From: Bacteroidota bacterium
GTDB lineage: Bacteria > Bacteroidota > Ignavibacteria > UBA10030 > SZUA-254
Direction: 5' to 3'
Assembly (NCBI GenBank): GCA_044449065.1
Contig: JBIOHP010000003.1
Span: forward strand, 2,019-66,018
DNA length: 64,000 nt
Positions 13,926-40,413 of this stretch are shown piece by piece; the first letter of the stretch is position 1; each line of letters opens with the position of its first letter. The position numbers and the translations under genes were made by a program. The notes beneath the pieces were generated by a model that was given only the letters and a program-made list of their open reading frames with translations, searched no databases and was not told the DNA's origin.

Positions 13926-15155
13926 TTATTTGCCGAATTCCTTTTCCAGTTTGTTATCATGGAGTTCGCGTTTCGTCCTCACCCATTTATTTGGACCGCC
14001 GTGGATGATCAATTTACCATAGAGACCGATTTTCCATACTGCATATCGCGGCACATACAAGATTGATTTATAAAGAAACTTATCGGCTTTCGCGGCAAGA
14101 AGACCGAAGAGCGCGTGAATGCATGCCGCTCCAAAGATTCCCGTCCAGATCCACAGGTATATTCCGAAACTGCCGAGTCCGCTGACTGCCAGAATCACAT
14201 GTAGTAAGATAATAAAGACGATGATAACACTCAAATTTACAAACGGCGGTATTATCAAATCTAAAAATGCGTCGAATAAAGGATAGGACATTTTTTTGAA
14301 TGACGAGGAAAGCAGTTTTGGAGCGTAAAATTTCACCAGGGGTTTTCTTCCCGATTCCCAGCGTGTTCGTTGGGTTTCGCTATCTTTTGGTTTATCGGGC
14401 ATAGATGATACCACCCTTGCTTCGGGGGCAAAATCAACAGAGACGCCTTTTAATAGAAGATTCAATCCATATTCGAGATCTTCGGCGTATGAGAATGCCT
14501 GCCACGGGATATCGCGCAGCACGCCAGTGGAGAGGCACATGCCGGTACCGCGTAATCCTACGGAACATCCGATTTTTCTTTTTCCGAATGGACGAACAAC
14601 ATTATAGAGCGTAAAGCCGAGGCGGACAATTTCTGAATTCCATGCGCCGGGATTTGGCTTCACGAGATCGGCAATTTGAACGGCCCGCGCACCCCGATCG
14701 AGGTGAGAATCAAGAACGGCGAGGGTATTCCGGCTTACCTCACAATCTGCATCAATAACAACAACTGCGTCATAATGCTTGGACGAATTTAACAAGGAAT
14801 CGAAGCACCAACGGAGCGCGAAACCCTTGCCGGTGTTCGTGAGATTATTTCTGACAAACACTGTCGCCCCCAAAGAACGGGAGATTTCTGCAGTCTGATC
14901 TGTGCAGTTATCGGCAATAATGATGATTTCGAATTGGTCCCTCGGATAGTCGAGGGAAAACAAACTTTCCAATGTTTTACCGATGACTAATTCCTCATCG
15001 TGGGCGGGAACGACAACGGCGAATGATCGTTTCGGCGGAGATAACTTTTTGCCTGGTTTATAAGGGAGCAATGCCAGAATACTCAACAACGCGAGGTAGA
15101 TCGGAAAGACGCCGAATATTGCTAAAAGAAATAATTCTAAAATGAGGAGGATCAT
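13926..15155 (-). CDS. GT2 family glycosyltransferase with TM helices
   Basis: VPAHDEE, ADNCTD, GKG, DAD, ED, QRTRW (QxxRW). Confidence 0.9.
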   Translation of the reverse strand: MILLILELFLLAIFGVFPIYLALLSILALLPYKPGKKLSPPKRSFAVVVPAHDEELVIGKTLESLFSLDYPRDQFEIIIIADNCTDQTAEISRSLGATVFVRNNLTNTGKGFALRWCFDSLLNSSKHYDAVVVIDADCEVSRNTLAVLDSHLDRGARAVQIADLVKPNPGAWNSEIVRLGFTLYNVVRPFGKRKIGCSVGLRGTGMCLSTGVLRDIPWQAFSYAEDLEYGLNLLLKGVSVDFAPEARVVSSMPDKPKDSETQRTRWESGRKPLVKFYAPKLLSSSFKKMSYPLFDAFLDLIIPPFVNLSVIIVFIILLHVILAVSGLGSFGIYLWIWTGIFGAACIHALFGLLAAKADKFLYKSILYVPRYAVWKIGLYGKLIIHGGPNKWVRTKRELHDNKLEKEFGK

Positions 15156-16936
15156 TATTTGTCGTTCATCCCGGAATCCGTGGCTGAATTTCCCGCGAGG
15201 TTCGCAAGATATCCGGCGAGGTAGACAAATGGCGCCGTATAATTGATAGCAACTTCATTGACGTAATAATTTTTTTCATTATCCTCGTAGCATTTTCCCG
15301 GGAATTCCGAGATGACGATGCCATTCAGTTGGCTGTTTTTGTTTGGTCCTCCCACCAGCAAACCCGGAACAGGCGACCCCGCATTGAGCATCATGGAAAA
15401 CTGATGATATGGATGTTGGACGGGATTGGCGCCCACCCCCGTTTCAAAGGACAACGAAAAAGTATTTCTTCCGAGTAAGTAATGAAGCTGGTCGATTGCG
15501 CCGTTGAGATAGGTTACAGATTTTGTCGTTTGATATGCTCCAAGAAGATCGAATGTATAAGCGGCGTCTACACTATTTGATCCCCAGTAGAATTCACCCG
15601 ACTTGAGAACGCACCGATATCCGCCCAATTCAATTTTCTTCAGGAGCAGATCGCAATATCCTGTCAGCCGTGCGACCAATAACGATCGGGCTGTGAAATC
15701 CGTTTGTTCTGCCGGGATCTTGAGATAAGAATTCACGGCAAAATTCTGAACCATTTCCCAGCTTACAGGATTCAGTGTGCCGAGTTCCTTGTACATTTGC
15801 ACGAAATAATGATGATACTCCTGATTATCGGTAGTTCGGTATAATTCAACCGCAGCCCAGAGTCGTTCATCTGTATCCTCGATATCCCCATATTCACCGC
15901 CGCTGACGTCGGGAGGGTTGTGAAATCCGCCCTCGGGGACGATCGTGCGATGGTTTTGTAAATATTGCCATGCATTGATTGACGCTCGTAATAAAATTTG
16001 TGAGAACGGTTTATCCCATTTCCCGAAGATGCGCGCGCCGAGCGCCGTGACTGCCGCAAAAGAGCCCGTAGCTGTGCTGCTCACTGCATAAACATACCGT
16101 TTATCGGGGTCATCCTGTGGAAGGTATTCGCCGGTCCATTGTTTCGTTGATACTTTGTGATAAACCGCGCCCTCGTTATTCTGCATTTTCAGAAGCCAGC
16201 TAAGCTCCCACCGCACCTCATCGAGTATGTCGGGTATTTTATTTGCAGTTTCTGGTATATTCAATTGATGGTCTAAGAATTCATCCGATCGATCTTCATA
16301 CAGATAGAGCAGGAATGCAGCGCTGATTGTACCGGTGGCGGTAAATTTTCCATAATCGCCCGCATCATGCCATCCGCCGGTAAGATCGATTTTATTCGAT
16401 GGGTCGACATAAAAATATGCATCATCAAGATGGCAGGCAGGATGCTGCCATACTGTTCCGTTTTTGACTTCCGTACCGCATCGCTGATAGTAGAAACTTT
16501 CAAGCCCACGGGTAACCGCTTCATTATATACTTCATTTGAAATTCTGAATACGGCTGATTGCACCTGCAATCCGGGTATTGCGATATAATAGGAACCCGG
16601 CGCCGTTAAATCAGAAAAATCGAGATTGAAGACGTCGTCTCCCGTGCCGTCATCTGGTGAGCCGATGGCTGAGATATGATGCTCAAAAGAGACTTTTTTG
16701 GTCAATATATTTATAACCTGGAAATTGCCATTATATGCCTGCCGGATAAAGGCGATCTTAGGATCGTTGGGGCGGTACCCGAGTTGATCGATAATGATTC
16801 CGGTTTGGGATAATAAAAGTTCAGCGTGAAAAAAAAGAATCACGCCAAATACTAAAATGCACGAATGTCTCGACCCGACTTTAGCAAAGTGAAAGATCCT
16901 CCTTCCTCTCGGTAAAAACCTAACGGAATAATTCAT
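15155..16936 (-). CDS. GH9 glycoside hydrolase with N-terminal Ig-like domain, no T9SS CTD
   Basis: DQLGYRP, FYYQRCG, GGWHDAGDYGK, YLLGRN, HPYH, NEVAINY. Confidence 0.92.
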   Translation of the reverse strand: MNYSVRFLPRGRRIFHFAKVGSRHSCILVFGVILFFHAELLLSQTGIIIDQLGYRPNDPKIAFIRQAYNGNFQVINILTKKVSFEHHISAIGSPDDGTGDDVFNLDFSDLTAPGSYYIAIPGLQVQSAVFRISNEVYNEAVTRGLESFYYQRCGTEVKNGTVWQHPACHLDDAYFYVDPSNKIDLTGGWHDAGDYGKFTATGTISAAFLLYLYEDRSDEFLDHQLNIPETANKIPDILDEVRWELSWLLKMQNNEGAVYHKVSTKQWTGEYLPQDDPDKRYVYAVSSTATGSFAAVTALGARIFGKWDKPFSQILLRASINAWQYLQNHRTIVPEGGFHNPPDVSGGEYGDIEDTDERLWAAVELYRTTDNQEYHHYFVQMYKELGTLNPVSWEMVQNFAVNSYLKIPAEQTDFTARSLLVARLTGYCDLLLKKIELGGYRCVLKSGEFYWGSNSVDAAYTFDLLGAYQTTKSVTYLNGAIDQLHYLLGRNTFSLSFETGVGANPVQHPYHQFSMMLNAGSPVPGLLVGGPNKNSQLNGIVISEFPGKCYEDNEKNYYVNEVAINYTAPFVYLAGYLANLAGNSATDSGMNDK

Positions 16937-16938
16937 TG

Positions 16939-18240
16939 TTAATTCTTGATCGGAGAGAGCGCGGGTTTATCCGTTTTTGATTCGATAATATTGTTGTTAT
17001 ATGACGCTGTAATCGCTGGGGCGTTTGCAGGGTACGAATTCGGTTCGGCCGAAGAATTTTTATTCAATTTTTTGAGAACATGCATCTTGCACATTGAGAA
17101 AAACGGCGCTAAATCATCCTTTGCGAAATATCCCGCCTCCTGCACGCCTTTAAATGATGTGAGCCACTCCCAAAAATGTAATTTGCCATCGCGGAAATAC
17201 TTGTAGCAAGATCGTATATCCTTATCCTCGACGAACCATTTGCGACCTTTACGTTGAACAACCGGCAGAACTTTTTGACCGGTTAAATCAAGATAGAGAG
17301 CGCGGATAACATCCATTCCGTTCTCAGCGACAAAAAGTCTGAACGTCGCGCCAACCCGGGGATTAATATCCAGAACTTTGTATTGCCCATCGCGCGCATC
17401 GTAACGATAGCCAAGATCCAAAATTCCCCGATACCCGATCGCTTTCATAAATTTCTTTGTGGTTTCTTCAACCGTAGTATTTGGCAGACAAATACCAAGC
17501 GAGGTCATGCCGGTATAGACCGGGTTTTGGCGGATTTTTTTTCCGCTGAATGCAGCGAGGCATTCCGATTGTTCGTTGAAATATCCGTCAAACATCCACA
17601 CCGAATCTTCTCCGCCGGGAATATATTCTTGCAGCATGAGATTTGGATCCGATGGGTCTTCGAGAAGATCGTATTGTCCCAATAGTTCCTGCTCATTTTT
17701 CACTTTGACCATCTTTTTACCGGTACGTCCTTCGAGTTTGTTTCCATCTATCCCCTTCAGCATTACAGGAAACATTGCGTGCTGAGCATACGTGACAACT
17801 TCGTCGCGGTTTTGCGGGAAATCCGTTATCGCGACGGGGATTCCATATTTTGTCGCGAGGAAATGCATCTCCTTCTTATTGCATAAAGAACGCACAAGTT
17901 GCGCGTTATACTTCGGAACGATATACCATTGCTGCAACCGCTCGATGCTATCCGCTACAAACATTGCCAGGTCGTCGCTGGTCGGGATGAGGATCGACCG
18001 TTTCCCTATTTTTTGTCCGATATCCAGTAGGAACTTGATGCTCTCCTCCCGTGGAGCGCCGTCGATATCCCAGAGGAATTTACCGGCGCAGTACCTCGAT
18101 TGGAATCCCGGAGCGTTTGGATTAGGATCAACGCCATATACCGGAACACCTAATCTGCCGAGAGTACGTGTAATACCCAGACTGCCGTAATGTTCAAGTT
18201 TTAAGATGACTACCGGGGTGGTTTCTGTTGAATTATTCAT
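16939..18240 (-). CDS. ATP-grasp carboxylate-amine ligase (D-aspartate ligase-like)
   Basis: LGITRTLGRLG, SRY, LIPTSD, NK, FPVMLK, LQEYIPG, KIRQ, DARDGQYKVLDINPR. Confidence 0.85.
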   Translation of the reverse strand: MNNSTETTPVVILKLEHYGSLGITRTLGRLGVPVYGVDPNPNAPGFQSRYCAGKFLWDIDGAPREESIKFLLDIGQKIGKRSILIPTSDDLAMFVADSIERLQQWYIVPKYNAQLVRSLCNKKEMHFLATKYGIPVAITDFPQNRDEVVTYAQHAMFPVMLKGIDGNKLEGRTGKKMVKVKNEQELLGQYDLLEDPSDPNLMLQEYIPGGEDSVWMFDGYFNEQSECLAAFSGKKIRQNPVYTGMTSLGICLPNTTVEETTKKFMKAIGYRGILDLGYRYDARDGQYKVLDINPRVGATFRLFVAENGMDVIRALYLDLTGQKVLPVVQRKGRKWFVEDKDIRSCYKYFRDGKLHFWEWLTSFKGVQEAGYFAKDDLAPFFSMCKMHVLKKLNKNSSAEPNSYPANAPAITASYNNNIIESKTDKPALSPIKN

Positions 18241-18623
18241 GTTGTAATATTTTCTCCGTTATTGAACAGATAAGGGCATGTTAATCAATTGTTCTGGAGT
18301 TATCGTCCGGAAATGCATCTCGATTTCCGATTCAATCAATGATGAATGTTTTCATTTAAAATCATTCATCGAGCCAATTTTTTGCCCGTGTTATTATTTA
18401 AGTTCTATACTCTAAATCGATTAAATTCCGTTTATGGATTCTCTTATTTATCGGGTTGCGTTCCAGAGCGTACTCTAAATCTACCAAACCCGGTATTGAG
18501 TATATGTTATTGAAGGTAAATCACCATATTAAATCAACTATCCAAACCTCCCAACTCTTCTATGATAGAGATGGTCAGCTTTTGAAAGCCAGATAATGTA
18601 ACACCGGATGTTCCAATCCGCAA

Positions 18624-19415
18624 TCACGAACGCATCTGGTTGATAGTGTGTTTTGCGAATTCATCCTTTCCGGATGACGAATTATCCATAGATACTGGAA
18701 TCATGGTAACTTCTTTCGAAGTTACTTTGAATGCCGCATTCACATCGTTAACATGCGAGAGGATAAACTCGAGATCTTTTTCCTGACCTGATTTTCGCAA
18801 ATACTTGACGCTATTGCTGATCAGACAGGCGTCTGCAGTCGCGCCGCTCCAGCGTCTCACTATTTCGGATGTATGTTGATCTACGGGCACGAATCCTGAT
18901 TGAATAAGAAATTCCGCTATCCAGGCGCAGCACATCTGGTCCTCCTCGCGGAATTCTCCGCGTGTTCCTGCGCCTATGATTGCTATATTGGAATTTTGCA
19001 TCGATAAATATTTCGCCGTAGCTTTATAATTTCTGAAACAAGCAATATATGTGCCGTGCCTGCCCGATTGAGCGTTGTGGATTAATTGAGTTCCAGATGA
19101 CGAGAGCAAGATCAATGGACGGCCGTGATCAATTCCATTTGCCATTACCGCCGGGCTATTATTGAGATCGAAACCGTACGGGACGTTCCCACCCAGCTCG
19201 CCGGCAAGATAAGGATTATGCAGAATTGTTGAAAGTGACTGAGCGTCTTCCAACGTAGGTACGGGATAACAACGCTGACCCATAACAACAGATGTGATTG
19301 CGGTTGTCGTTGCGCGAATGACATCGATGGCGACGATTGCGTAATCTTCCCTGTAGCGTTCAACGCTTTCAGGAAAACAATCGATAACGACTTTTCTCTC
19401 AGATTGATTGTTCAT
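18624..19415 (-). CDS. comB: 2-phosphosulfolactate phosphatase
   Basis: AIDVIRATTT, GELGG..GFDLNNSP, LSSSGT, EDQMC; adjacent to comA. Confidence 0.9.
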   Translation of the reverse strand: MNNQSERKVVIDCFPESVERYREDYAIVAIDVIRATTTAITSVVMGQRCYPVPTLEDAQSLSTILHNPYLAGELGGNVPYGFDLNNSPAVMANGIDHGRPLILLSSSGTQLIHNAQSGRHGTYIACFRNYKATAKYLSMQNSNIAIIGAGTRGEFREEDQMCCAWIAEFLIQSGFVPVDQHTSEIVRRWSGATADACLISNSVKYLRKSGQEKDLEFILSHVNDVNAAFKVTSKEVTMIPVSMDNSSSGKDEFAKHTINQMRS

Positions 19416-19428
19416 ATAATGTTCCTTT

Positions 19429-20262
19429 CTACGAATGTACTTCCTGGCGGATTTGCGGGTGGAGCTTTTCTTTTGAAAATGCGTCAGAATGCAAGCCGCG
19501 TCTGTAAATTTCCACTCTTAGTAATTCTTCGAGACGGATATTGCATAAATGAACGTCGTGGCCGAAGTGATCGAGAAGCGCAAACTGACTTGGCTTATTG
19601 GGCGCTTCAAACATGACCGTATGCAGTCCGAATGCGTCGGCGAAACGATCCGCGTAATTAGGATTGAAACGACCCTTATCGTCGAACAGACCGACAGATT
19701 GCGCGCTTTCTCTCGCTTCAACAACAAGCTGTAATGCGCCCGCATCAAGCCATTCTTTTCCCTGTTCAATCAATTCTCCGACCGTCGCATCGGTGAACGC
19801 CCCGGTGTGTTTTTTGCCGAGTTCAAACTGAGCTTCGAGCCCGCGTTCCCGCGCCATATTGATGACTGCAGTGGGTTTCAGATCCATATCCGTAAATCCC
19901 ATTCCACATTCAATGCGCGTGAATCCGATATCGGCGCACAGATCGAGATAATCCGGAAGAGCATGTTGAGCGACTGCGATTTCGAATGGACCGCCGCCGA
20001 CAACCGTGGGTACTCCATGACGATTTGCAGCCGCAACTTTTTGGCGCGTCGCTTTTTCGCTTGCCACCATCCAGCATGCCATTGAAATTTTCAGTATTGA
20101 AATCAAATGCGAACTTTGATCGAGGTGACTTTCGAGAGTCGTGGGATCATAGCCCGGATCGAACGGACTGGTTAAGGGCGGCAACTGCGCCACTCCGATT
20201 TTTTTCAGATAATCCGATGTATGAAATCGGTTTTTTATTATGTATTCCTGTCGTGTTGTCAT
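19429..20262 (-). CDS. comA: Phosphosulfolactate synthase
   Basis: DPG, GGGPFE, ELGKK, VEARES, FEAP.K..Q, NI...VE..RRGL.SD. Divergent KISMACW where KFGWGT is usual. Confidence 0.85.
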   Translation of the reverse strand: MTTRQEYIIKNRFHTSDYLKKIGVAQLPPLTSPFDPGYDPTTLESHLDQSSHLISILKISMACWMVASEKATRQKVAAANRHGVPTVVGGGPFEIAVAQHALPDYLDLCADIGFTRIECGMGFTDMDLKPTAVINMARERGLEAQFELGKKHTGAFTDATVGELIEQGKEWLDAGALQLVVEARESAQSVGLFDDKGRFNPNYADRFADAFGLHTVMFEAPNKPSQFALLDHFGHDVHLCNIRLEELLRVEIYRRGLHSDAFSKEKLHPQIRQEVHS

Positions 20263-20342
20263 TTTGACAACTCCTTTCTAATTAATGTGGTGAAGGTAAA
20301 TTAAATTATAAAATAAAAAAGTTGATGAACGATGATCTTTCA

Positions 20343-21242
20343 TTATCGTGAATTATTCTTTTTCGATACAATGCGTTGTGCAACAATGATGTAATGGGAG
20401 CCTGTTGACCGAATTCCCGGGAAATGGTGGTCGGTTAAATATTGAAGAAACCGATTGACCTTTTTTCCCCAACGATCAGGGAGAATTTTTTTGCCGAAGA
20501 ATGTGAATGGTCCAAATCCCAGCGTGAATCCGTCTATTTTCTCCAAACCAAGCGACGCGAACATCGAATCGATTTCACCAAGAGAGTGCATTTGAGGGAG
20601 AGAGGGAATAAATTTTGCATCTCTCAAGCGCAGTTTTACAAATATCCGTTTTATGAATTCCCGCAACGGCGCAATAACCGGATTCAACCGTGGATCCAGG
20701 ATATGATTCAGGCGCCATTTATTATCGACCGTAACGATAAGAAATCCGTCTTGTTTGAGAACGCGGGATATTTCGCGGACCGCTCTTTCCGGTGAATGCA
20801 GCCAGGGAAGAACTCCGAGCGCGATTCCAACGTCGAATGTTTCGTTCTGAAAACTCAGATCGTGGACATCTTCAAGCGTAATATTCACATAATCGCTCAA
20901 TCCGACGCTTTTTGCCCGTTCCTCGGTGAGATTCTTCATCGCTTTGACTTTATCAAGAGCCGTGACTCGATAACCGCGCCTGGCAATCGCGATTGTAAGG
21001 ACTCCCGCGCCGCTGCCGATCTCAAGCACCTTTGATTGGCTTGGTAATCCCAGCTCGTCGAGCAGCTTTAGTGCAATTGCCTGTCGATACTTATAGATGG
21101 TGCTTTGCAGGTCGGTGCTGTTATAGATCGCTTCCCAATAGGTAGACGTCGTTTCAAAATACTCATCCACCAATACTTGCTGGTTATCGCCGCGTGAGGA
21201 TTTTTTTTCATCGATTTCCGCGTGGTGTTTAATTGTTGTCAT
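20343..21242 (-). CDS. Class I SAM-dependent methyltransferase
   Basis: VLEIGSGAG, LSF..ETFD, EISRVLKQDG. Confidence 0.9.
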   Translation of the reverse strand: MTTIKHHAEIDEKKSSRGDNQQVLVDEYFETTSTYWEAIYNSTDLQSTIYKYRQAIALKLLDELGLPSQSKVLEIGSGAGVLTIAIARRGYRVTALDKVKAMKNLTEERAKSVGLSDYVNITLEDVHDLSFQNETFDVGIALGVLPWLHSPERAVREISRVLKQDGFLIVTVDNKWRLNHILDPRLNPVIAPLREFIKRIFVKLRLRDAKFIPSLPQMHSLGEIDSMFASLGLEKIDGFTLGFGPFTFFGKKILPDRWGKKVNRFLQYLTDHHFPGIRSTGSHYIIVAQRIVSKKNNSR

Positions 21243-21288
21243 CGTGTGGTCCCGTTATTATGAAATATTTGGAGTAACATGAGTTCTT

Positions 21289-22638
21289 TTATCCCTTTGT
21301 TTTGAATATTCTCTTCAGCCGGAATTGAATATAACGGACGAGAAAGAGCGGTGAATGTGATTGACGATACTGCACCTGTAATGTGGACGATTCGAGAAAG
21401 AGGCGGTAGCGAATCCATTCATAAACGTTCACGAATTTCGCTAAGACACTTTTCAGGGATTTGGCCGCCGTTGGATTTAATAAACGGATATGCCAGATAG
21501 TTGTTTGCACCGAGGTTAACTCGTATTTATATTGTTCGTTGCCGCGTAAAAATTCTATGGATTCGCAGCCGGATTGCGATGCGTCCTCTATCATTGAAAG
21601 GAGCAAGGCAAGACCGGGGCGGTATTTTGATGATGATTGCTGATCATCAAAGCCTGAGAGGTAATCGTACATTATGTCTTTGTAATTGAAACCCAAACGG
21701 GCGGCTGTACAATTGCCATCCATGCGAACAGTTTTAAACCACAACCAACCTTGATTATGAAATGCCCGGATCACATCTTCCTGAAAATTGACGAAACGTG
21801 AATCGGAGAACACACCGGGGTATCCAAGTTTATTCCATCTTGATTGATGCAACCCCATGAGCTCGTTAAACGAGTTTTTTATCTCCGGGTATGTAGAAAT
21901 CGTTTCAAGTGTAGAAACGCCGGTTCCGTTTTCAAGCTTACGCGCTTGCGAAAATCTCCGCCGGACGCCTGAGCTTAACGATCCTAAATATTCTTTCATC
22001 GATGTTGGGGTTTTAAGCCGTGGACAAACGTCGGCAACTGACGCAGCATAGGGGAATTTCTCATGATCGAGCAGCGATAAAAGTTCACGTTTGAATACGC
22101 TTTCATCCGGGATATTATCAAGTTCCACTTCATCCCATAACTCGTAGTTGTTTTGAAGATAGTTGAGAAATTCCCGAACCACTCTCTGAGCATCCTCCGG
22201 TTTAACGATCCCGTCTAAAAAATCCGACGGACAATAGCGATCGAACAATCCGCGTGAATGTGAACTTCTCACATCACATCCAAGAAACCTCAGCAAGGTT
22301 TGCGCCCCGTATCCGAGAATGGTTTTCTGCTCAAGAAAGAGTGGAATAACCCCGCTCACGACGTCGTCAATTCGTATGACAAGAATATTGAGCGTGCGAT
22401 GGCATTCATTGCCAAAATGTTTCCACCAATAATACTGCCAATCAAACGATTGATAGATCGTTGAGGGAACCTGTGAAACCAACGTATCCCATGATTCCCG
22501 GAGCGACGCGAATTGTTCCAGAGTATTGATTACTTGTATCGAAGCAACCGGATGGCTTTCATTCTTCGCGTCGAATTCACGATCGCGAAGAACAGTCGTT
22601 CCGCCGGAGGATTCAATATTTCTGTACAGAACGGTCAT
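21289..22638 (-). CDS. CelD/BcsL-like GNAT acyltransferase (Acetyltransf_6)
   Basis: W..L......YQSFDW..WW, SDFLD, LH..RW, YLSGFD..YRPG, FLRGNEQYK. Confidence 0.85.
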   Translation of the reverse strand: MTVLYRNIESSGGTTVLRDREFDAKNESHPVASIQVINTLEQFASLRESWDTLVSQVPSTIYQSFDWQYYWWKHFGNECHRTLNILVIRIDDVVSGVIPLFLEQKTILGYGAQTLLRFLGCDVRSSHSRGLFDRYCPSDFLDGIVKPEDAQRVVREFLNYLQNNYELWDEVELDNIPDESVFKRELLSLLDHEKFPYAASVADVCPRLKTPTSMKEYLGSLSSGVRRRFSQARKLENGTGVSTLETISTYPEIKNSFNELMGLHQSRWNKLGYPGVFSDSRFVNFQEDVIRAFHNQGWLWFKTVRMDGNCTAARLGFNYKDIMYDYLSGFDDQQSSSKYRPGLALLLSMIEDASQSGCESIEFLRGNEQYKYELTSVQTTIWHIRLLNPTAAKSLKSVLAKFVNVYEWIRYRLFLESSTLQVQYRQSHSPLFLVRYIQFRLKRIFKTKG

Positions 22639-23516
22639 AACGACTTTTGTTCAGCATCCACTGATTGGGGTTCCAACACTTCTTGTTTATGTCCGTTACC
22701 CTTGACCGGTTTGAACGTTCCGCGGAAGGCATCGCCAGCTTTGCGGCGGGTCCATTCATAATACTGGAACGGCGTCAACAACCGGAGGGCAAATCCCGCG
22801 GCGGTAGTTCTCCCTAAGATCGTAATACGCCGAATTTCAAAATGGTCGTCTCCAAATATTGCCGGTCCGCTGCCAACGCCGCATCCGAAACGGTATCCGG
22901 CATGTTTTGTCGCTTCTTTGATTGAATCATTGATCAAGCCAAAGGGATAAGAAATAGTGTGTACGGGAGCGTCTAATAGAATTTCCAAAAGAATCCTGGA
23001 ACGGCAAATCTGTTCCCAGGTCTGGTCTTCGGTTAATTCTGTTAACCGTGGATGCGAAAGTGAATGCGAGCCAATTTCAAAACCGGCTTCATGCATTTCG
23101 ACTATTTGTCGTCCATTCATCAATGGCGCATCGGGAATTTCCGGGTTATGATCCCAATAATTTGTTTTAACATTCTTATCCCCGAGAACAAAGATGACTG
23201 CTTTAAAGCCGAATTCCTGCATGACGGGAAATGCTACCTCGTACGTATCAAGGTAGCCGTCGTCAAAGGTAAGAATAATGGGTTTCTTCGGAAGATCGAG
23301 TCGACCTTCAAGGAATAACCTGTAATCACGGAACGTGATTGGCGTGAAGCCCCATTGCTCCAACAATTCTAATTGGCGACGGAAGTCGTCGACATGGACT
23401 GACGTCCAGTGTTTGTCGCTGATCTTCCTATCATCAACTACCCTATGGTACATGAGGACTTTAATTGCGCGGGGGTTCCCCTCGCAATGAATTGCGTGTC
23501 CGTTATTGTTGTGCAT
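22635..23516 (-). CDS. Polysaccharide deacetylase (CE4/NodB-like)
   Basis: LMYHRV, TFDDGYLD, GSHSLSH, SYPFG. Start set at ATG 23516, overlapping the end of the GT4 gene. Confidence 0.9.
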   Translation of the reverse strand: MHNNNGHAIHCEGNPRAIKVLMYHRVVDDRKISDKHWTSVHVDDFRRQLELLEQWGFTPITFRDYRLFLEGRLDLPKKPIILTFDDGYLDTYEVAFPVMQEFGFKAVIFVLGDKNVKTNYWDHNPEIPDAPLMNGRQIVEMHEAGFEIGSHSLSHPRLTELTEDQTWEQICRSRILLEILLDAPVHTISYPFGLINDSIKEATKHAGYRFGCGVGSGPAIFGDDHFEIRRITILGRTTAAGFALRLLTPFQYYEWTRRKAGDAFRGTFKPVKGNGHKQEVLEPQSVDAEQKSL

Positions 23517-24717
23517 AAATTTCCACTTCCTTATGTTGTGAAAGAGTTTGTAATATATTTTCAATTTCTTGCCCTATCGCACTCCATTCATACCCGGTGC
23601 GTGCAATTTCATAACCATTCTCGGCAATTTGACGATGGTCGACACGGTCGCGAAGAACATCGATAACAGCATCTGCGAATTGCCGGGGCGTATCGGCGAT
23701 CAATACTGATTTACCAGCTTCTACGGTAATCCCCTCGCAGCCAATGCCGGTAGTGATAACCGGTTTCTTCATCGCCATCGCTTCCACGACTTTTAACCGC
23801 GTTCCTCCACCCATTCGGAGAGGAACGACATACGCCTTTGAGCGCCGTACATACGGTCGTACATCATCGACAAAACCCGTGACGATAATATTTTCGGATG
23901 CGCGTTTTTGGAGGAATAACGGTGGTTGGTTCCCGACAATATATATTTTTGTTTCCGGGATTTCTTTGAGAATTAATGGAAATATCTCATCAAGAAAGTA
24001 CAGAATGCCATCGTAGTTGGGAGTATATCCCATCATGCCCGTAAAGACGAGGGAATATGGTTCAATCTGATCATTGTTCGGGAAGAAGTACGACGTATCA
24101 ACTCCGTTCGGGATAATATACTTCGGTAAATCTGGAATTAACGCATCAAAAACGGTTTTGTCTCTATCCGAAGTTACAAACAATGCGTCTTGTTTCCGGC
24201 AGGCATTCTGTTCTTCGTTATAGAGTTTTTTATATTCTCGAAGGTAATGGTTCTTCCTGAGCGAGGTGTTGGCATGTTCTGCCATCCGCGCAAAGTTATC
24301 ATGTTCAACATTATGCGCGTCTAATATTTTAATCGCTCTCGTATTCAACCTGTACCAGCCCATCATGCAAAATTCTGAGATGACGAGATCGAAGTCATCA
24401 GCGCTTAACACTTCGTCGATTGTTTTTTGCATTTGCTTTGAATAGCAGGCGCATTGGATATAGCTCATATTCGTAAAACGTGAATAGATCTGGCCTATAC
24501 GCCGATATCTTCCGGTCCACGGATACGGGACCACAAAAACCTGTTTGGGTGGTGAATCAAACGCCGCCATTAGTTGATCATGCGCTTCCGGCTCTCCGAA
24601 ACAGACAACGGTGACTTCGTGATTCTGACAGAGTTGTTTCAATAAATGATGAACTCGCAGCGCTCCGCCGTATACCGGCGGTTCGGGTGAATAGGTCATC
24701 ATGTGAAGAATTTTCAT
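23503..24717 (-). CDS. GT4 glycosyltransferase
   Basis: GG..R, HNVE, IPNGVD, GGGTRLKVVEAMA, GCEG. Confidence 0.92.
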   Translation of the reverse strand: MKILHMMTYSPEPPVYGGALRVHHLLKQLCQNHEVTVVCFGEPEAHDQLMAAFDSPPKQVFVVPYPWTGRYRRIGQIYSRFTNMSYIQCACYSKQMQKTIDEVLSADDFDLVISEFCMMGWYRLNTRAIKILDAHNVEHDNFARMAEHANTSLRKNHYLREYKKLYNEEQNACRKQDALFVTSDRDKTVFDALIPDLPKYIIPNGVDTSYFFPNNDQIEPYSLVFTGMMGYTPNYDGILYFLDEIFPLILKEIPETKIYIVGNQPPLFLQKRASENIIVTGFVDDVRPYVRRSKAYVVPLRMGGGTRLKVVEAMAMKKPVITTGIGCEGITVEAGKSVLIADTPRQFADAVIDVLRDRVDHRQIAENGYEIARTGYEWSAIGQEIENILQTLSQHKEVEIYAQQ

Positions 24718-26213
24718 TAATTTACTCCCCGTTCGGACGCCAAAGTTTTTTCATGCCGGTTCATTAATAATGCTTCTCGCAATATGACGATATCGGAGAA
24801 CGGGAAACCTTTTAAAGCCAGCAATCCGCCGATATAAACGAATAAACCGATGATCGCTTGTATCACGAAGGGTATATTTTTTGTGGAAACCAGAAACAAC
24901 ACTGCAATCATCAGGACGCCGGCGGCAATCCCCTTTACCTGAGCGGAAACTTTTGAGTGCTGAAAAATACTTCGCGGGACTAAATATAATGCCATGCACA
25001 TCACGGCAAATTCCGTAATATGCGTCGCGATTGCAGATCCGATGCCGCCATTTCCCATATGCACTTCAGTATAGGGGATGAAGAAATAATTTAAGAGCGG
25101 ATTCAGGAGCATTGCAAAAAATGCGGCAATAGTCCATTGACGGGTTTTCTCGGACGCGATGATGGTCGAGACCAGAATGAAATCGATATATACCAATAAC
25201 AATCCGACGGCAAAAATTTGGAGTAATACAACCGATGGACCGTATTCTTTTAAGCCAAACAATAATTCAATAATTTGCCTGGAGAAGGTGAAGATTATTA
25301 TACTTATTGGAATTCCAGCCAGAAGAATGTAATCAACGCTTTTCTGGGTTGTCTGGGCAAGCACCTGATCGTTTTTGCCCCAGGATTTTGATAACACAGG
25401 AAACAGGGCAGTAGAATAAATACTTGGTAAAAACATCAGCACATCAAATAACCGATAAGCGGCGCCATACCATCCGACGACCCGTTCGGGCGCCATAAGA
25501 GAAAGCATGACTGCATCGATTCTATAATAGATAATCGCGCAGACCGACCAAAGGAAATACGGGACGCCTGCTTTAATTAAATATCGCACTTCCGACCAAT
25601 CAAACGGTGGAATACGAGGGATCAGTCTCCGGATATAAAATGCCTGGATCCCAAAATTAATAAACGTACTCATAGCCATAATAATCGCAATGAGAATTGC
25701 ATGGAACCCGGTCAGAAGAGCCGCAACGCCAAGCGCCGCAACCACAATTTTCTCAACAATCGCGCCTAAGGATGGAAACTGCATCATCTCGAAACCCTGG
25801 AAGCAGCTTGAAATTACCCTTCCAGATCCTTCCCACAATTTGGATATTCCGAGAATGGCGATGAGCAATCTAACCTGGGATGAATATCCGAATGCGAATG
25901 AGATTCCGATAATGGCGAGGGTTGATATAATCCATAACGTGAAGCGCAGAATCAATGAATTTGACAACATCATAGCCGCTTTATCGGCAGATCGGGAGAT
26001 TTCTTTTGCAACGAGAAAAGGGCCGCCGAATTCGATCACCGACTGGGAGATCAATGAAAGTGAAATAGCAAGGTACAATCTACCGTAATCTTCCGTGCCG
26101 AGATACCGCGGTAGGAGCAGCATCAGAATGAAGCTGGAAATCCAGGTTATCACCTGAGACGCCATCATCACCGATGTATTTTTTGCTATTGACCGGACGA
26201 CGTCAAGACTCAT
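24717..26213 (-). CDS. wzx: Wzx-type flippase
   Basis: Many TM helices; RYLG..YG, IYYRID.VML, GWYGAAYRL. Confidence 0.9.
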   Translation of the reverse strand: MSLDVVRSIAKNTSVMMASQVITWISSFILMLLLPRYLGTEDYGRLYLAISLSLISQSVIEFGGPFLVAKEISRSADKAAMMLSNSLILRFTLWIISTLAIIGISFAFGYSSQVRLLIAILGISKLWEGSGRVISSCFQGFEMMQFPSLGAIVEKIVVAALGVAALLTGFHAILIAIIMAMSTFINFGIQAFYIRRLIPRIPPFDWSEVRYLIKAGVPYFLWSVCAIIYYRIDAVMLSLMAPERVVGWYGAAYRLFDVLMFLPSIYSTALFPVLSKSWGKNDQVLAQTTQKSVDYILLAGIPISIIIFTFSRQIIELLFGLKEYGPSVVLLQIFAVGLLLVYIDFILVSTIIASEKTRQWTIAAFFAMLLNPLLNYFFIPYTEVHMGNGGIGSAIATHITEFAVMCMALYLVPRSIFQHSKVSAQVKGIAAGVLMIAVLFLVSTKNIPFVIQAIIGLFVYIGGLLALKGFPFSDIVILREALLMNRHEKTLASERGVN

Positions 26214-27806: not shown

Positions 27807-27825
27807 ATGATTTCTTCTTTAATAA

Positions 27826-29394: not shown

Positions 29395-29558
29395 GGAGTT
29401 GGAATCTTTCTGGTAAACATATCGAACAAGAGTATGCCGGTTTGGGCGATCGCGAAGAGGAGGAGCAATAAAAATGTCCCGAAGTTCAAGGGTCGGCCTT
29501 TTTTTCCCGTCCTAAGAGCGACGAGATAAATGAAAATTATTCCGAGCAGGGAAGTCAT
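29391..29558 (-). CDS. Small two-helix membrane protein (55 aa, not in the ORF track)
   Basis: Read by hand: MTSLLGIIFIYLVALRTGKKGRPLNFGTFLLLLLFAIAQTGILLFDMFTRKIPTP. It starts 6 nt after the kinase stop, and its TGA overlaps the wzy GTG. Confidence 0.75.
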   Translation of the reverse strand: MTSLLGIIFIYLVALRTGKKGRPLNFGTFLLLLLFAIAQTGILLFDMFTRKIPTP

Positions 29559-29564
29559 AAACTC

Positions 29565-30344: not shown

Positions 30345-30386
30345 TATGCTTTCAAATTCTAAAGTTTATCGTTATTTATTAATTGA

Positions 30387-33088: not shown

Positions 33089-33095
33089 TCGAAGC

Positions 33096-40387: not shown

Positions 40388-40413
40388 AAAACATAATAAA
40401 CGGATTATATATA

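What the first reader, a model, noticed from the sequence alone, without database searches (positions are those of the whole stretch)
16939..23516. Sulfolactate pathway (comA-comB) plus ATP-grasp ligase inside a Wzx/Wzy polysaccharide operon: candidate sulfonated glycan
Seen: a co-directional run of deacetylase, CelD/BcsL GNAT, SAM methyltransferase, comA, comB and ATP-grasp ligase, flanked by wzx, wzy, GT4 and GT26 upstream and GH9 and GT2 downstream. No comC or comDE is in the window. Known: ComA adds sulfite to PEP and ComB dephosphorylates the product to (R)-3-sulfolactate, as in coenzyme M synthesis and Bacillus spore sulfolactate. ATP-grasp ligases activate carboxylates for amide formation, and CE4 deacetylases free sugar amines. 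Inference: sulfolactate is made on site, activated, and amide- or ester-linked to the repeat unit. This would give a strongly anionic C-sulfonated capsule or EPS without any PAPS sulfotransferase. I am not aware of a described pathway of this kind.
Basis: partly seen in the sequence, partly recalled or inferred. Interest (0 to 1): 0.88.

Follow-up and report, generated by a model that had tools for sequence, protein, structure and literature searches.

The report
Mobile sulfolactate-ligase cassette in glycan loci
A small, widely shared set of genes that should make the sulfonic acid sulfolactate and couple it to something sits inside a sugar-polymer (capsule or slime) gene cluster, pointing to an undescribed way of putting a permanent negative charge on microbial surface sugars.

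Summary
Window 16939-23564 (minus strand) encodes a CE4 deacetylase, an Acetyltransf_6 GNAT, a SAM methyltransferase, ComA, ComB and an ATP-grasp ligase. They lie inside a complete Wzx/Wzy locus.

The methyltransferase, ComA, ComB and ATP-grasp form a conserved cassette. I examined the 80 best ComA-seeded loci of 149 relatives. They span about 12 phylum-level groups, including Bathyarchaeia, with ComA 66-85% identical. ComB is present in 78 of 80, the orthologous ATP-grasp in 68 of 80 (directly after ComB in 57), and the methyltransferase in 51 of 80. Natural methyltransferase-ATP-grasp fusions exist. ATP-grasp-seeded contigs lead back to ComA-ComB.

Of the loci of at least 9 kb, 49 of 69 carry two or more glycan gene types. 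Only 10 of 204 control windows of the own genome do.

The genome lacks ComC and ComDE, so this is not coenzyme M synthesis.

Best reading (about 0.55): sulfolactate is made and ATP-grasp-ligated onto the glycan. The amide-to-deacetylated-sugar detail is weak, because only 23 of 69 loci have an amine-generating neighbour. The genome also lacks known sulfite-forming sulfate assimilation genes. No description was found in print. Nothing here is biochemically shown.

The parts
20343..21242 (-). SAM-dependent methyltransferase (Methyltransf_11), first gene of the conserved cassette
   Evidence: Pfam 5e-21. A homolog lies beside ComA in 51 of 80 loci. It is 39% identical over 287 aa to the N-terminal domain of natural methyltransferase-ATP-grasp fusion proteins.
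19429..20262 (-). ComA homolog, (2R)-phospho-3-sulfolactate synthase family
   Evidence: PF02679 at 165.7 bits against a cut-off of 25.2. End-to-end alignment to solved ComA 1QWG, E 3.8e-31. Below the NCBIfam archaeal equivalog cut-off, 158.8 against 280. It is the only copy in the genome.
18624..19415 (-). ComB homolog, 2-phosphosulfolactate phosphatase family
   Evidence: PF04029 at 124.6 bits against a cut-off of 26.4. PDB relatives 2Z0J and 1VR0 at about 1e-16. Adjacent to ComA in 78 of 80 loci.
18241..18623 (.). 383-nt AT-rich non-coding spacer between comB and the ATP-grasp gene
   Evidence: Sequence read. No terminator-like site, promoter-like sites at chance level, no Rfam match. Related loci have gaps of 5-202 nt.
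16939..18240 (-). ATP-grasp carboxylate-amine ligase of a distinct orthogroup linked to ComA-ComB
   Evidence: AF2 pLDDT 89.8. Foldseek hits to PurK, biotin carboxylase, L-amino-acid ligase and PylC at about 1e-16. K162, E205, D291, N293 and R295 are invariant in 37 orthologs. An ortholog is present in 68 of 80 ComA loci. In 401 phylum genomes, orthologs occur only where ComA is adjacent.
21289..22638 (-). Acetyltransf_6 (FemAB-like GNAT) protein, a recurrent but not universal partner
   Evidence: PF13480 5e-22. Acetyltransf_6 genes lie near the cassette in 10 of 80 loci from three phylum-level groups. A paralogous Acetyltransf_6 plus ATP-grasp pair stands alone elsewhere in this genome.
22635..23564 (-). 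CE4 polysaccharide deacetylase without an N-terminal hydrophobic segment
   Evidence: PF01522 7e-28. Translation shows no signal-like stretch by eye. Conserved upstream in Ignavibacteria/Bacteroidota loci L027, L033 and L037.
23503..31724 (-). Upstream glycan genes: GT4, Wzx, GT26 (WecG/TagA), stand-alone GlmS-type glutaminase domain, Wzy, tyrosine-kinase-like ATPase, Wzz/GNVR
   Evidence: Pfam and NCBIfam hits.
13926..16936 (-). Downstream GH9 endoglucanase-like gene and GT2 (EpsU/PgaC-like)
   Evidence: PF00759 4e-91 and GT2 families. The same pair follows the cassette in L011 and L037.
32294..36107 (+). Divergent genes: Wza (Poly_export), outer-membrane beta-barrel, WecA/MraY-family priming transferase with a CoA_binding_3 domain
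   Evidence: Pfam.
10523..11590 (-). Persulfide-dioxygenase-like MBL domain fused to rhodanese, a candidate sulfite source. Not conserved with the cassette.
   Evidence: Pfam. PDB relatives 3TP9 (8e-60), BpPRF 5VE3 (1e-25) and ETHE1 4CHL. No homolog appeared in the 80 loci at the thresholds.

Best explanation
The methyltransferase, ComA, ComB and ATP-grasp ligase form one horizontally spread functional cassette. It is plugged here into a Wzx/Wzy exopolysaccharide locus.

Proposed mechanism:
1. ComA adds sulfite to phosphoenolpyruvate to give 2-phospho-3-sulfolactate. This is inferred from family membership.
2. ComB removes the phosphate to give 3-sulfolactate. This is inferred from family membership. 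LarA-type alpha-hydroxy-acid racemase genes sit next to comA in some loci, which fits a free hydroxy-acid intermediate.
3. The cytoplasmic ATP-grasp enzyme activates a carboxylate, most simply that of sulfolactate, as an acyl phosphate. It joins it to a nucleophile on the lipid- or nucleotide-linked repeat unit before Wzx flipping. This is inferred.
4. The nucleophile may be an amino group freed by the cytoplasmic-looking CE4 deacetylase, or an amino acid placed there by the FemAB-like Acetyltransf_6 protein. This is speculative.
5. The methyltransferase, which is fused to the ligase in some organisms, methylates the same substrate or product, for example the 2-hydroxyl of the sulfolactyl group. 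This is speculative.

The net result would be a glycan carrying a C-sulfonate group made without PAPS.

Shown here: gene content, family membership, fold, conserved synteny, glycan context and absence of the coenzyme M pathway. Not shown: any reaction, the acceptor, the order of the ComB and ligase steps, or the sulfite source.
For: Family assignment:
- ComA and ComB Pfam scores are far above the gathering cut-offs.
- ComA aligns end to end with solved ComA. ComB has solved ComB-family relatives.
- The ATP-grasp fold and its invariant nucleotide- and Mg-site-like residues are present.

Cassette, from the 80 best of 149 ComA relatives found in one genome per species:
- ComA is 66-85% identical across Ignavibacteria/Bacteroidota, Acidobacteriota, Bathyarchaeia, Methanomicrobiales, Chloroflexota, Binatia, Gemmatimonadota, Nitrospira, Actinomycetota, Calditrichia and Patescibacteria.
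- ComB is present in 78 of 80, the ATP-grasp ortholog in 68 of 80 and the methyltransferase in 51 of 80.
- The ligase lies directly downstream of comB in 57 loci, further downstream in 2 and upstream of comA in 8.

Reverse direction:
- Of 13 ATP-grasp-seeded metagenome loci, 9 were informative, and 7 of those have ComA-ComB directly upstream.
- In 401 genomes of the phylum, only G000 and G312 have an ortholog (100% and 62% identity). All other matches are 23-29% paralogs. G312 has ComA about 0.8 kb away.
- All three relatives with ComA among 40 have the ligase beside or near it.

Rosetta-stone evidence: 5 of the 120 best ATP-grasp hits are 642-751 aa proteins with methyltransferase domains. 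In P0060 that domain matches the window methyltransferase at E 5e-72.

Glycan context:
- Recurrent neighbours, by number of the 80 loci: GT4 21, Wza 17, priming Bac_transf 16, Wzz 14, PTK-like 11, UDP-glucose dehydrogenase 11, PIG-L 11, GT2 10, Wzy 9, DegT 7.
- More are added.
- With one fixed query set, 55 of 69 loci have at least one glycan gene type, 49 of 69 at least two and 35 of 69 at least three. The figures for 20-kb windows of the own genome are 24, 10 and 3 of 204.

Free sulfolactate: LarA homologs, best matching Ni-dependent malate racemases, occur in 8 of 80 loci. In 6 of these they sit immediately upstream of comA.

Not coenzyme M: no Ldh_2/ComC and no ComDE in the 100%-complete genome.

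Precedent for ATP-grasp amidation of a capsule sugar: the Cj1438 C-terminal domain (passages of PMC11800379).
Against: - No enzymology or polymer chemistry exists for any member.
- NCBIfam equivalog cut-offs for ComA (158.8 against 280) and ComB (at best 91 against 330; TIGR00298 76.6 against 175) are not reached. Identical substrates are therefore not guaranteed.
- The genome lacks ATP sulfurylase, the PAPS-reductase family and NIR_SIR sulfite reductases. The usual route to sulfite is missing. The nearby persulfide-dioxygenase-rhodanese gene is only a candidate source and is not conserved with the cassette.
- Glycan context is absent with my queries in 14 of 69 loci. This includes all 4 'Proteobacteria' MAG loci and the one long Binatia locus. 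There the neighbours are Acetyltransf_6, a galactonate-dehydratase-like enolase and an amidohydrolase.
- Amine-generating neighbours occur in only 23 of 69 loci, and in 6 of 40 Acidobacteriota loci. A further CE4 cluster adds at most 5 loci.
- In this window a 383-nt spacer separates comB from the ligase gene.
- A paralogous ATP-grasp plus Acetyltransf_6 pair stands outside any glycan locus in this same genome. The wider ligase family is therefore not restricted to glycans.
- Nine of the 69 long loci lack the ligase ortholog within the flank.
- The control used a single genome, and the queries were drawn from the cassette loci. Related loci are not independent. ORFs in flanks were called naively.
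Confidence: 0.55

Rival explanations
1. The cassette makes a soluble, small sulfolactate conjugate rather than a polymer decoration. One version is a bacillithiol-like glycoside. A GT4 enzyme would put GlcNAc on the 2-hydroxyl of sulfolactate (a malate analogue). A PIG-L or CE4 deacetylase would free the amine, and the ATP-grasp would acylate it. Another version is an N-sulfolactyl amino acid or peptide serving as osmolyte, cofactor-like compound or signal.
For: - In 11 of 12 Bathyarchaeia loci a PIG-L deacetylase directly follows the ligase. Its best match is the bacillithiol deacetylase BshB1, 5e-27, below the cut-off. GT4 genes follow it.
- The cassette also occurs without recognisable glycan genes, next to Acetyltransf_6, an amidohydrolase and an enolase-superfamily enzyme.
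- The core is self-contained and moves between very different genomic backgrounds.
Against: - Most loci place the cassette inside operons with Wza, Wzz, tyrosine kinase, priming transferase, Wzx and Wzy. In Acidobacteriota it sits between the priming transferase and a Wzx-like membrane protein.
- The BshB1 and BshA-type matches are far below family cut-offs.
- No thiol-adding enzyme was seen.
Confidence: 0.2
2. The ligase and the Acetyltransf_6 protein build an ordinary amino-acid side chain on the glycan or another envelope molecule, as Fem transferases and D-aspartate ligase do on peptidoglycan. ComA-ComB only supply free sulfolactate for another purpose, such as a compatible solute or sulfite disposal. 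They are co-located and co-inherited for regulatory reasons.
For: - Sources name many orthologs 'D-aspartate ligase' or 'carboxylate-amine ligase'.
- Acetyltransf_6 plus ATP-grasp pairs exist without ComAB, including one in this genome.
- The 383-nt spacer here could separate transcription units.
Against: - The ComAB-linked ligases form a sharply separate orthogroup, at 41% identity or more against 23-29% for the paralogs in the phylum sample. In that sample, orthologs were found only where ComA is adjacent.
- The ligase is directly adjacent to comB, with a gap of 5-202 nt, in 57 loci across both domains of life. Such tight co-inheritance through repeated transfer is hard to explain without a shared pathway.
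- Acetyltransf_6 is present in only 10 of 80 loci.
Confidence: 0.12
3. The ComA and ComB homologs of this clade have diverged in substrate, using another nucleophile or another enol-phosphate. The product would then not be a sulfonate.
For: Both proteins score below the NCBIfam equivalog cut-offs. The genome lacks the usual sulfite-forming enzymes.
Against: - The full-length alignment to solved ComA keeps the blocks around ELGKK, EARES and FEAPNK, which are EVGKK, EGRES and FEAPQK in 1QWG. That the lysine block is catalytic is my recollection, not a call.
- ComA and ComB stay paired in 78 of 80 loci, as expected for a synthase and the phosphatase of its product.
- Pfam knows no other activity for either family. 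That is the description in the library, not a test.
Confidence: 0.08
4. The genes serve coenzyme M biosynthesis, or spore-type accumulation of free sulfolactate.
For: ComA and ComB are the first two enzymes of the archaeal coenzyme M route, and a ComA homolog occurs in Bacillus subtilis. The pathway assignment is established knowledge that I recall. The control genomes that ring include B. subtilis and M. jannaschii.
Against: - No ComC (Ldh_2) and no sulfopyruvate decarboxylase in a 100%-complete genome.
- The organism groups with Ignavibacteria/Bacteroidota by the names of its nearest protein and locus relatives.
- This reading leaves the conserved ligase and methyltransferase unexplained.
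Confidence: 0.02

Closest known systems
Archaeal coenzyme M pathway, steps ComA and ComB (M. jannaschii ComA, PDB 1QWG)
   Same: Same two protein families, in the same order, and probably the same two reactions giving 3-sulfolactate.
   Different: - No ComC or ComDE in the genome.
- ComA is about 70% identical within this clade across both domains of life, yet scores 158.8 bits against the archaeal equivalog cut-off of 280.
- The cassette is always joined to an ATP-grasp ligase and usually to a methyltransferase, mostly inside glycan loci.
Campylobacter jejuni Cj1438 C-terminal ATP-grasp amidoligase with phosphatase Cj1435 (capsule glucuronamide)
   Same: An ATP-grasp enzyme encoded in a capsule locus forms an amide on a repeat-unit sugar. 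A phosphorylated small-molecule partner is dephosphorylated by a dedicated phosphatase (passages of PMC11800379). This shows that the ligase could act before ComB.
   Different: - There the sugar supplies the carboxylate and the small molecule supplies the amine. Sulfolactate has no amine, so the polarity would be reversed here.
- Cj1438C is described as a TupA-like ATP-grasp. No TupA-like family is among the Pfam hits of the window protein.
D-aspartate ligase type ATP-grasp enzymes (COG3919) and Fem transferases of peptidoglycan side chains
   Same: Source annotations call many orthologs D-aspartate ligase. A small acidic acid would be activated and put on an amine of an envelope precursor. 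A FemAB-like GNAT is a frequent neighbour.
   Different: No comparison with a characterised D-aspartate ligase was made, because no sequence was available from a tool. The context here is a Wzx/Wzy glycan locus, not peptidoglycan. The function of the named enzymes is recalled, not tested.
Bacillithiol pathway (BshA GT4, BshB PIG-L deacetylase, BshC)
   Same: An alpha-hydroxy acid (malate there, its sulfonate analogue here), GT4 enzymes and a BshB1-like PIG-L deacetylase co-occur in the archaeal loci.
   Different: Scores are far below the family cut-offs. No BshC-like enzyme was seen. The bacterial loci carry export and polymerisation genes. The pathway description is recalled.
XrtA/PEP-CTERM-type exopolysaccharide loci
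   Same: The best NCBIfam matches of the GT4, the chain-length determinant, the tyrosine kinase and, in relatives, the FemAB-like protein are to XrtA-associated families.
   Different: All these scores are below the cut-offs. No exosortase was looked for. The window's own Acetyltransf_6 protein has no NCBIfam hit.

Membership tests
ComA, phosphosulfolactate synthase (PF02679 / TIGR03849) | Domain match above Pfam's gathering score over the whole barrel | tested here: met
   165.7 bits against a cut-off of 25.2, profile positions 13-243 of 243. Query 30-264 aligns to 1QWG 15-250, E 3.8e-31.
ComA, phosphosulfolactate synthase (PF02679 / TIGR03849) | NCBIfam equivalog score (same function as archaeal ComA) | tested here: not met
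   158.8 bits against a cut-off of 280.
ComA, phosphosulfolactate synthase (PF02679 / TIGR03849) | Catalyses PEP + sulfite to 2-phospho-3-sulfolactate | not testable with these tools
   Needs an enzyme assay.
ComB, 2-phosphosulfolactate phosphatase (PF04029) | Domain match above Pfam's gathering score | tested here: met
   124.6 bits against a cut-off of 26.4. PDB relatives 2Z0J, 1VR0 and 2YYV at about 1e-15 to 1e-16.
ComB, 2-phosphosulfolactate phosphatase (PF04029) | NCBIfam equivalog score | tested here: not met
   Best is 91 bits against a cut-off of 330. TIGR00298 gives 76.6 against 175.05.
ATP-grasp superfamily | Three-domain ATP-grasp fold | tested here: met
   AF2 pLDDT 89.8, pTM 0.86. 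421 PDB chains at E of 0.001 or better, led by PurK, biotin carboxylase, L-amino-acid ligases and PylC.
ATP-grasp superfamily | Conserved nucleotide- and Mg-binding residues (Lys in the central domain; acidic-x-Asn-x-Arg in the C-domain). The motif definition is recalled. | tested here: met
   K162, E205, D291, N293 and R295 are invariant in 37 orthologs.
TupA-like ATP-grasp amidoligases (Cj1438C type) | Match to the TupA-like ATP-grasp family | tested here: not met
   The Pfam hits at E of 0.01 or better are CPSase_L_D2, ATPgrasp_Ter, ATP-grasp_5 and ATP-grasp_3 only.
D-aspartate ligase (COG3919) | Orthology to a characterised D-aspartate ligase | not tested
   Only source-given names are available. 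No characterised sequence was at hand from a tool.
Coenzyme M biosynthesis pathway | Presence of ComC (sulfolactate dehydrogenase) and ComDE (sulfopyruvate decarboxylase) | tested here: not met
   No Ldh_2 match. TIGR03845 gave only 22.1 bits against a cut-off of 147.95. Genome completeness is 100%.
Wzx/Wzy-dependent polysaccharide locus | Flippase, polymerase, chain-length regulator/kinase, outer-membrane export protein, priming transferase | tested here: met
   Wzx, Wzy_C, Wzz/GNVR, tyrosine-kinase-like ATPase, Poly_export and Glycos_transf_4.
XrtA/PEP-CTERM exopolysaccharide system | Family-level scores for the associated proteins, and an exosortase | tested here: inconclusive
   stp1 236.2 against 316.65; chain-length determinant 169.2 against 278.85; kinase 87.4 against 230.65. 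The exosortase was not searched.

The most novel reading that the evidence does not exclude
A four-gene cassette (methyltransferase, ComA, ComB, ATP-grasp ligase) has spread by horizontal transfer between bacteria and archaea. By record titles the genomes come mostly from soil, peat, sediment and groundwater. The cassette installs a sulfolactyl, possibly O-methyl-sulfolactyl, group on extracellular or envelope glycans.

This would be a PAPS-independent route to permanently anionic, C-sulfonated polysaccharides. It would also be a so far unrecognised biological source of the sulfolactate that sulfite-respiring peat bacteria are equipped to degrade (suyAB in peat Acidobacteria; passages of PMC6018796).
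Probability: 0.45. Interest if true: 0.85.

Novelty: new variant of a known kind. Interest (0 to 1): 0.8.

Why it matters
- **A new glycan chemistry.** Sulfated glycans made with PAPS are known. I found no report of a glycan carrying a carbon-bonded sulfonate derived from sulfolactate. Such a group is not a sulfate ester and stays charged at any pH. It would therefore change metal binding, hydration and degradability of biofilm matrices.
- **Wide distribution.** The scan of one genome per species found 149 ComA relatives. The 80 examined span about 12 phylum-level groups, with about 70% ComA identity between bacteria and archaea. This implies strong selection and repeated transfer.
- **Reinterpretation of annotations.** comA/comB annotations in non-methanogens may need a second look. 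They could otherwise be read as partial coenzyme M synthesis.
- **Sulfur cycling.** It would give organosulfonate cycling in soils and peat a producer side.
- **A defined question for enzymology.** An uncharacterised ATP-grasp orthogroup and its fused methyltransferase now have a specific candidate substrate.

Tried and rejected
- **Coenzyme M synthesis:** rejected, because ComC and ComDE are absent.
- **Chance juxtaposition:** rejected by the conserved synteny.
- **Enolase-superfamily gene as a sulfolactate racemase:** I considered this for the gene that follows the ligase in four loci. I dropped it because its best matches are acid-sugar dehydratases (galactonate dehydratase, 284.7 bits against a cut-off of 311).
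- **ATP-grasp as an ADP-forming acyl-CoA synthetase subunit:** considered because of weak ATP-grasp_5 and 4XYL hits. Not pursued. The hits are at generic-fold level (E about 0.001-0.01) and no alpha subunit is present.
- **Persulfide-dioxygenase-rhodanese gene as part of the cassette:** it is not conserved near the cassette (no hit in 80 loci at the thresholds).
- **Stand-alone GlmS-type glutaminase domain as part of the cassette:** a homolog was seen only in L093 and L094.
- **Sequence search of the PDB with the ligase:** nothing better than E 0.006.
- **Atlas look-alike search:** returned only generically named 'carboxylate-amine ligase' clusters.
- **Spacer 18241-18623:** no Rfam match, no terminator-like site, promoter-like sites at chance level.
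- **RNA evidence:** no RNA holder was listed.
- **Plasmid search with ComA:** found only relatives at 50.4% identity or less. The best, on Streptomyces plasmids, lies in an NRPS/PKS-type cluster without ComB, so it is a different context.
- **Cultured hosts:** none was found among the 80 loci listed; all are MAG records. The other 69 relatives of that scan were not shown to me.

Literature:
- Searches returned 2, 1 and 4 papers. I saw only the listings, except for passages of PMC11796062, which concern a SAR11 transporter island.
- One search returned 8 papers. I read passages of PMC6018796.
- One search returned 27 papers. I read passages of PMC11800379.
- Searches returned none.
- One search returned 246 papers with two of three terms. 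None of the ten listed contains 'sulfolactate'.
- Supplements are closed. Supplementary Table S2 of PMC6018796 might list comA/comB in peat Acidobacteria, and I could not see it.

Limits of my counts:
- Flank ORFs were called by a simple longest-ORF rule. In GC-rich loci this sometimes picked the antisense frame. Such ORFs were excluded as 'antiComA/antiComB'.
- Clusters were annotated through one representative each.
- Taxon groups were assigned by me from the record titles.

Full report
**Observation.** Between 10.5 and 31.7 kb, all long ORFs of the window lie on the minus strand. Pfam and NCBIfam assign them, in transcription order, as follows:

| Coordinates | Assignment |
|---|---|
| 30387-31724 | Wzz/GNVR chain-length determinant |
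| 29565-30344 | tyrosine-kinase-like P-loop ATPase |
| 27826-29394 | Wzy-type polymerase |
| 27075-27806 | 243-aa protein consisting only of the GlmS-type glutaminase domain |
| 26210-27097 | WecG/TagA GT26 |
| 24717-26213 | Wzx flippase |
| 23503-24717 | GT4 |
| 22635-23564 | CE4 deacetylase |
| 21289-22638 | Acetyltransf_6 GNAT |
| 20343-21242 | Methyltransf_11 enzyme |
| 19429-20262 | ComA |
| 18624-19415 | ComB |
| 16939-18240 | ATP-grasp protein |
| 15155-16936 | GH9 with a CelD_N domain |
| 13926-15155 | GT2 |
| 11782-13512 | PafA-like alkaline phosphatase |
| 10523-11590 | metallo-beta-lactamase-rhodanese fusion |

- The divergent strand starts with Wza, an outer-membrane barrel and a WecA-family priming transferase.
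Its end coordinate is the first ATG of the CE4 ORF.
- One point was not noted: 383 nt of AT-rich non-coding DNA separate comB from the ligase gene. This spacer has no Rfam match and no terminator-like site.

**Identity of the parts.**
- ComA scores 165.7 bits against a gathering score of 25.2. It aligns from residue 30 to 264 with residues 15-250 of the solved M. jannaschii enzyme.
- ComB scores 124.6 bits against 26.4 and has solved relatives at about 1e-16.
- Both fall short of NCBI's equivalog cut-offs. They are family members, but not certified iso-functional.
- The ligase has only marginal Pfam hits and no PDB relative by sequence.
- An AlphaFold model built on 37 orthologs is confident (pLDDT 89.8). 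It matches PurK, biotin carboxylases, L-amino-acid ligases and PylC at about 1e-16.
- K162, E205 and D291-x-N293-x-R295 are invariant among orthologs. I read these as the ATP and Mg site from recalled knowledge of the superfamily.
- Neither the CE4 nor the GNAT protein shows an N-terminal hydrophobic segment by eye. All steps could therefore be cytoplasmic.

**The cassette.**
- ComA is rare among relatives. It occurs in 4 of 41 genomes including the window's own. In all three others a ligase ortholog lies beside or near ComA-ComB.
- A scan of one genome per species with ComA gave 149 relatives. I examined the 80 best loci. ComA identity is 66-85%. The records are titled Ignavibacteria/Bacteroidota, Acidobacteriota, Bathyarchaeota, Methanomicrobiales, Chloroflexota, Binatia, 'Proteobacteria', Gemmatimonadetes, Nitrospira, Gaiellaceae, Solirubrobacteraceae, Calditrichaceae and Patescibacteria.
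- By tblastn with the window's proteins, ComB is present in 78 of 80 loci. A ligase ortholog (at least 40% identity over at least 40% of the query) is present in 68 of 80, and the methyltransferase in 51 of 80. Among the 69 loci of at least 9 kb the figures are 68, 60 and 49.
- The ligase starts 5-202 nt (median about 65) after ComB in 57 loci. It lies further downstream in 2 and upstream of ComA in 8.

**The reverse direction.**
- Of 13 metagenome loci seeded with the ligase, one is spurious. Three have under 200 nt upstream.
- Seven have ComA-ComB directly upstream. Two have at least 3.4 kb upstream without them but are cut downstream.
- In an even sample of 401 genomes of the phylum, 20 have a match at E of 1e-20 or better. 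Only the window's genome and G312 (62%) carry an ortholog; every other match is 23-29% identical. G312 has ComA about 0.8 kb from the ligase.
- Five of the 120 best ligase hits are 642-751 aa and carry methyltransferase domains. In P0060 that N-terminal domain is 39% identical to the window methyltransferase over 287 residues (E 5e-72).
- I conclude that the four genes are one functional unit that moves as a unit. ComA identity of about 70% between an Ignavibacteria-like bacterium and Bathyarchaeia argues for transfer between domains of life.

**Context.**
- I clustered 1,154 flank ORFs from the 80 loci and annotated the representatives. Recurrent neighbours, by number of loci:

| Neighbour | Loci (of 80) |
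|---|---|
| GT4 | 21 |
| Wza | 17 |
| priming Bac_transf | 16 |
| NusG-like | 15 |
| polytopic membrane protein without Pfam match, Wzx-like by topology | 15 |
| Wzz | 14 |
| AAA_22-PEGA | 13 |
| BcsQ/kinase-like | 11 |
| UDP-glucose dehydrogenase | 11 |
| PIG-L | 11 |
| GT2 | 10 |
| APH | 9 |
| Wzy | 9 |
| LarA | 8 |
| epimerase | 8 |
| DegT | 7 |

- Further clusters are CE4, a small Bac_transf, Wzc, Wzx, GT4, asparagine synthase, a beta-helix protein and Acetyltransf_6.
- With one fixed set of 22 glycan-gene queries and fixed thresholds, 55, 49 and 35 of the 69 long loci carry at least 1, 2 and 3 gene types. The figures for the own genome's 20-kb windows are 24, 10 and 3 of 204, and one of those windows is the cassette's own.
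- By group, loci with at least two glycan gene types are:

| Group | Loci with two or more types |
|---|---|
| Bathyarchaeia | 12 of 12 |
| Acidobacteriota | 30 of 40 |
| Bacteroidota | 3 of 5 |
| Chloroflexota | 2 of 3 |
| Actinomycetota | 1 of 2 |
| Calditrichia | 1 of 1 |
| 'Proteobacteria' MAGs | 0 of 4 |
| Binatia | 0 of 1 |
| Patescibacteria | 0 of 1 |

- This control is crude. It uses one genome, the queries came from the cassette loci, and kin are not independent. The contrast is nevertheless large.
- The exceptions are real. In 98 ORFs from the 16 loci without a recognised glycan cluster, the commonest families were Acetyltransf_6 (4), MR_MLE (3), subtilase (3), AMP-binding (2), Bac_transf (2), amidohydrolase (2) and Lar_N (2).
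- In the Binatia/'Proteobacteria' lineage the order is amidohydrolase, methyltransferase, Acetyltransf_6, ComA, ComB, ligase, then a galactonate-dehydratase-like enzyme.

**Clues to the mechanism.**
- *Free sulfolactate.* LarA homologs occur in 8 loci and end just before comA in 6 of them. They best match nickel-dependent malate racemases, though below the cut-off. Malate is the carboxylate analogue of sulfolactate. This fits a free alpha-hydroxy-acid intermediate whose configuration is sometimes inverted.
- *Amine-generating enzymes.* Three unrelated families adjoin the cassette in different lineages. CE4 does so in Ignavibacteria, Bryobacterales and some other Acidobacteriota. A BshB1-like PIG-L directly follows the ligase in 11 Bathyarchaeia loci. 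DegT does so with a PseB/CapD-like dehydratase in Bryobacterales and in Calditrichia. This fits an amino-sugar acceptor. However, only 23 of 69 loci show such a neighbour with my queries, and such genes are common in glycan loci anyway.
- *Acetyltransf_6 proteins.* These FemAB-like proteins recur near the ligase in 10 loci of three groups. A paralogous Acetyltransf_6-ligase pair stands alone between nuo genes and an rRNA methylase gene in this genome. The wider ligase family thus tends to work with a Fem-like transferase. By recalled analogy with peptidoglycan side-chain synthesis, this again suggests acylation of an amine.
- *Published precedent.* In the C. jejuni capsule, an ATP-grasp domain amidates glucuronate with a phosphorylated amine and a separate phosphatase acts afterwards (passages of PMC11800379). 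ComB might likewise act after the ligase. I cannot decide the order.

**Sulfite supply.**
- The genome is 100% complete and 0.36% contaminated. It has no ATP sulfurylase, no PAPS-reductase-family protein and no NIR_SIR sulfite reductase.
- This counts against an easy sulfite supply and is unexplained.
- The MBL-rhodanese fusion 5 kb downstream resembles persulfide dioxygenase-rhodanese fusions: 3TP9 at 8e-60, BpPRF at 1e-25, ETHE1 at 3.5e-17. From recalled biochemistry, such enzymes form sulfite from persulfide or thiosulfate.
- It is a candidate source only and is not conserved with the cassette.

**Comparison with what is known.**
- The first two steps work like the start of archaeal coenzyme M synthesis. 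The pathway is not present here, because ComC and ComDE are absent.
- The ligase is an ATP-grasp enzyme of an uncharacterised orthogroup. It is not a TupA-like amidoligase. Its relation to D-aspartate ligase rests on source names only.
- The locus is a standard Wzx/Wzy system with sub-threshold resemblance to XrtA-associated families.
- I found no paper linking sulfolactate or phosphosulfolactate synthase to polysaccharides, glycan clusters or ATP-grasp ligases. The searched library omits most subscription journals, and supplements were closed.
- Peat Acidobacteria are reported to carry sulfolactate sulfo-lyase genes (passages of PMC6018796). Consumers of sulfolactate therefore live where many cassette carriers were sampled.

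**Verdict.**
The core of the interpretation passes its own comparative test and is strengthened by the discovery of a conserved, mobile four-gene cassette.
- The specific chemistry remains inference. This covers the amide to a CE4-freed sugar amine, the role of the methyltransferase and the sulfite source.
- I rate the sulfolactyl-glycan reading at about 0.55 and a soluble conjugate at about 0.2. Decoupled functions are at about 0.12, altered ComA/ComB chemistry at about 0.08 and coenzyme M at about 0.02.
- It is a new variant of known kinds: glycan decoration modules and sulfolactate synthesis. Interest is high because of the breadth of distribution, the implied new polymer chemistry and direct testability.

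Noticed in passing
window 10523-11590 (-): Metallo-beta-lactamase domain fused to rhodanese, resembling persulfide dioxygenase-rhodanese fusions (3TP9 8e-60, BpPRF 1e-25). The genome lacks ATP sulfurylase, PAPS-reductase-family and NIR_SIR proteins. This gene may therefore be the sulfite source for ComA. It is not conserved with the cassette.
   Followed up: partly
window 27075-27806 (-): 243-aa protein consisting only of the GlmS-type class II glutaminase domain (TIGR01135 positions 2-227 of 607, 1.8e-65). Its end overlaps the start of the GT26 gene. A 44% identical homolog lies near the cassette in metagenome loci L093 and L094. Function unknown.
   Followed up: partly
window 18241-18623: 383-nt AT-rich spacer between comB and the ligase gene. 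It is longer than the 5-202 nt gap in 57 related loci. No RNA family or terminator-like site was found.
   Followed up: yes
G000:C7:52341-54844 (L103 6342-8845, +): A second, paralogous pair in the same genome: an Acetyltransf_6 protein followed by a 24%-identical ATP-grasp protein. It lies between NADH dehydrogenase genes and a SpoU methylase gene, outside any glycan locus.
   Followed up: partly
L014 8471-9850, and L024, L033, L041, L056, L068 (also L048, L050): LarA-family genes, best matching nickel-dependent malate racemases but below the cut-off, lie directly upstream of comA in six loci and nearby in two more. They are candidate sulfolactate racemases.
   Followed up: partly
L102 (Streptomyces sp. 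NBC_00211 plasmid, 345066-369845), and five similar plasmids: A ComA homolog 50.4% identical to the window's lies without ComB in an NRPS/PKS-type cluster. That cluster holds an acyl carrier protein, ketosynthases, MbtH, SbnB, an ATP-grasp protein and a cysteine-synthase-like protein. This suggests a sulfonated natural product.
   Followed up: no
L060 and L062 (Bathyarchaeota loci), about 11.5-12.9 kb: Where other Bathyarchaeia loci have the intact ligase gene, these two show only short ORFs of 95-172 aa between ComB and the PIG-L gene. The ligase may be decayed there.
   Followed up: no
window 13926-16936 (-); L011 7303-10251; L037 17006-19858: A GH9 endoglucanase-like gene and an EpsU/PgaC-like GT2 follow the cassette as a conserved pair in the window and in two Ignavibacteria/Bacteroidota loci. 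This is reminiscent of synthase-plus-glucanase pairs of beta-glucan operons.
   Followed up: no
window 36104-39832 (+) and 40258-43603 (+): A 1,242-aa multi-Ig/fn3 protein with a type IX secretion C-terminal sorting domain follows the priming transferase. Malate synthase and isocitrate lyase (glyoxylate shunt) lie just beyond.
   Followed up: no
L027 7353-8930, and L016, L033, L037, L068: An AMP-binding (adenylate-forming) enzyme lies upstream of the cassette in five loci, between the Acetyltransf_6 gene and the methyltransferase where I read the order (L027). It is absent from the window.
   Followed up: no
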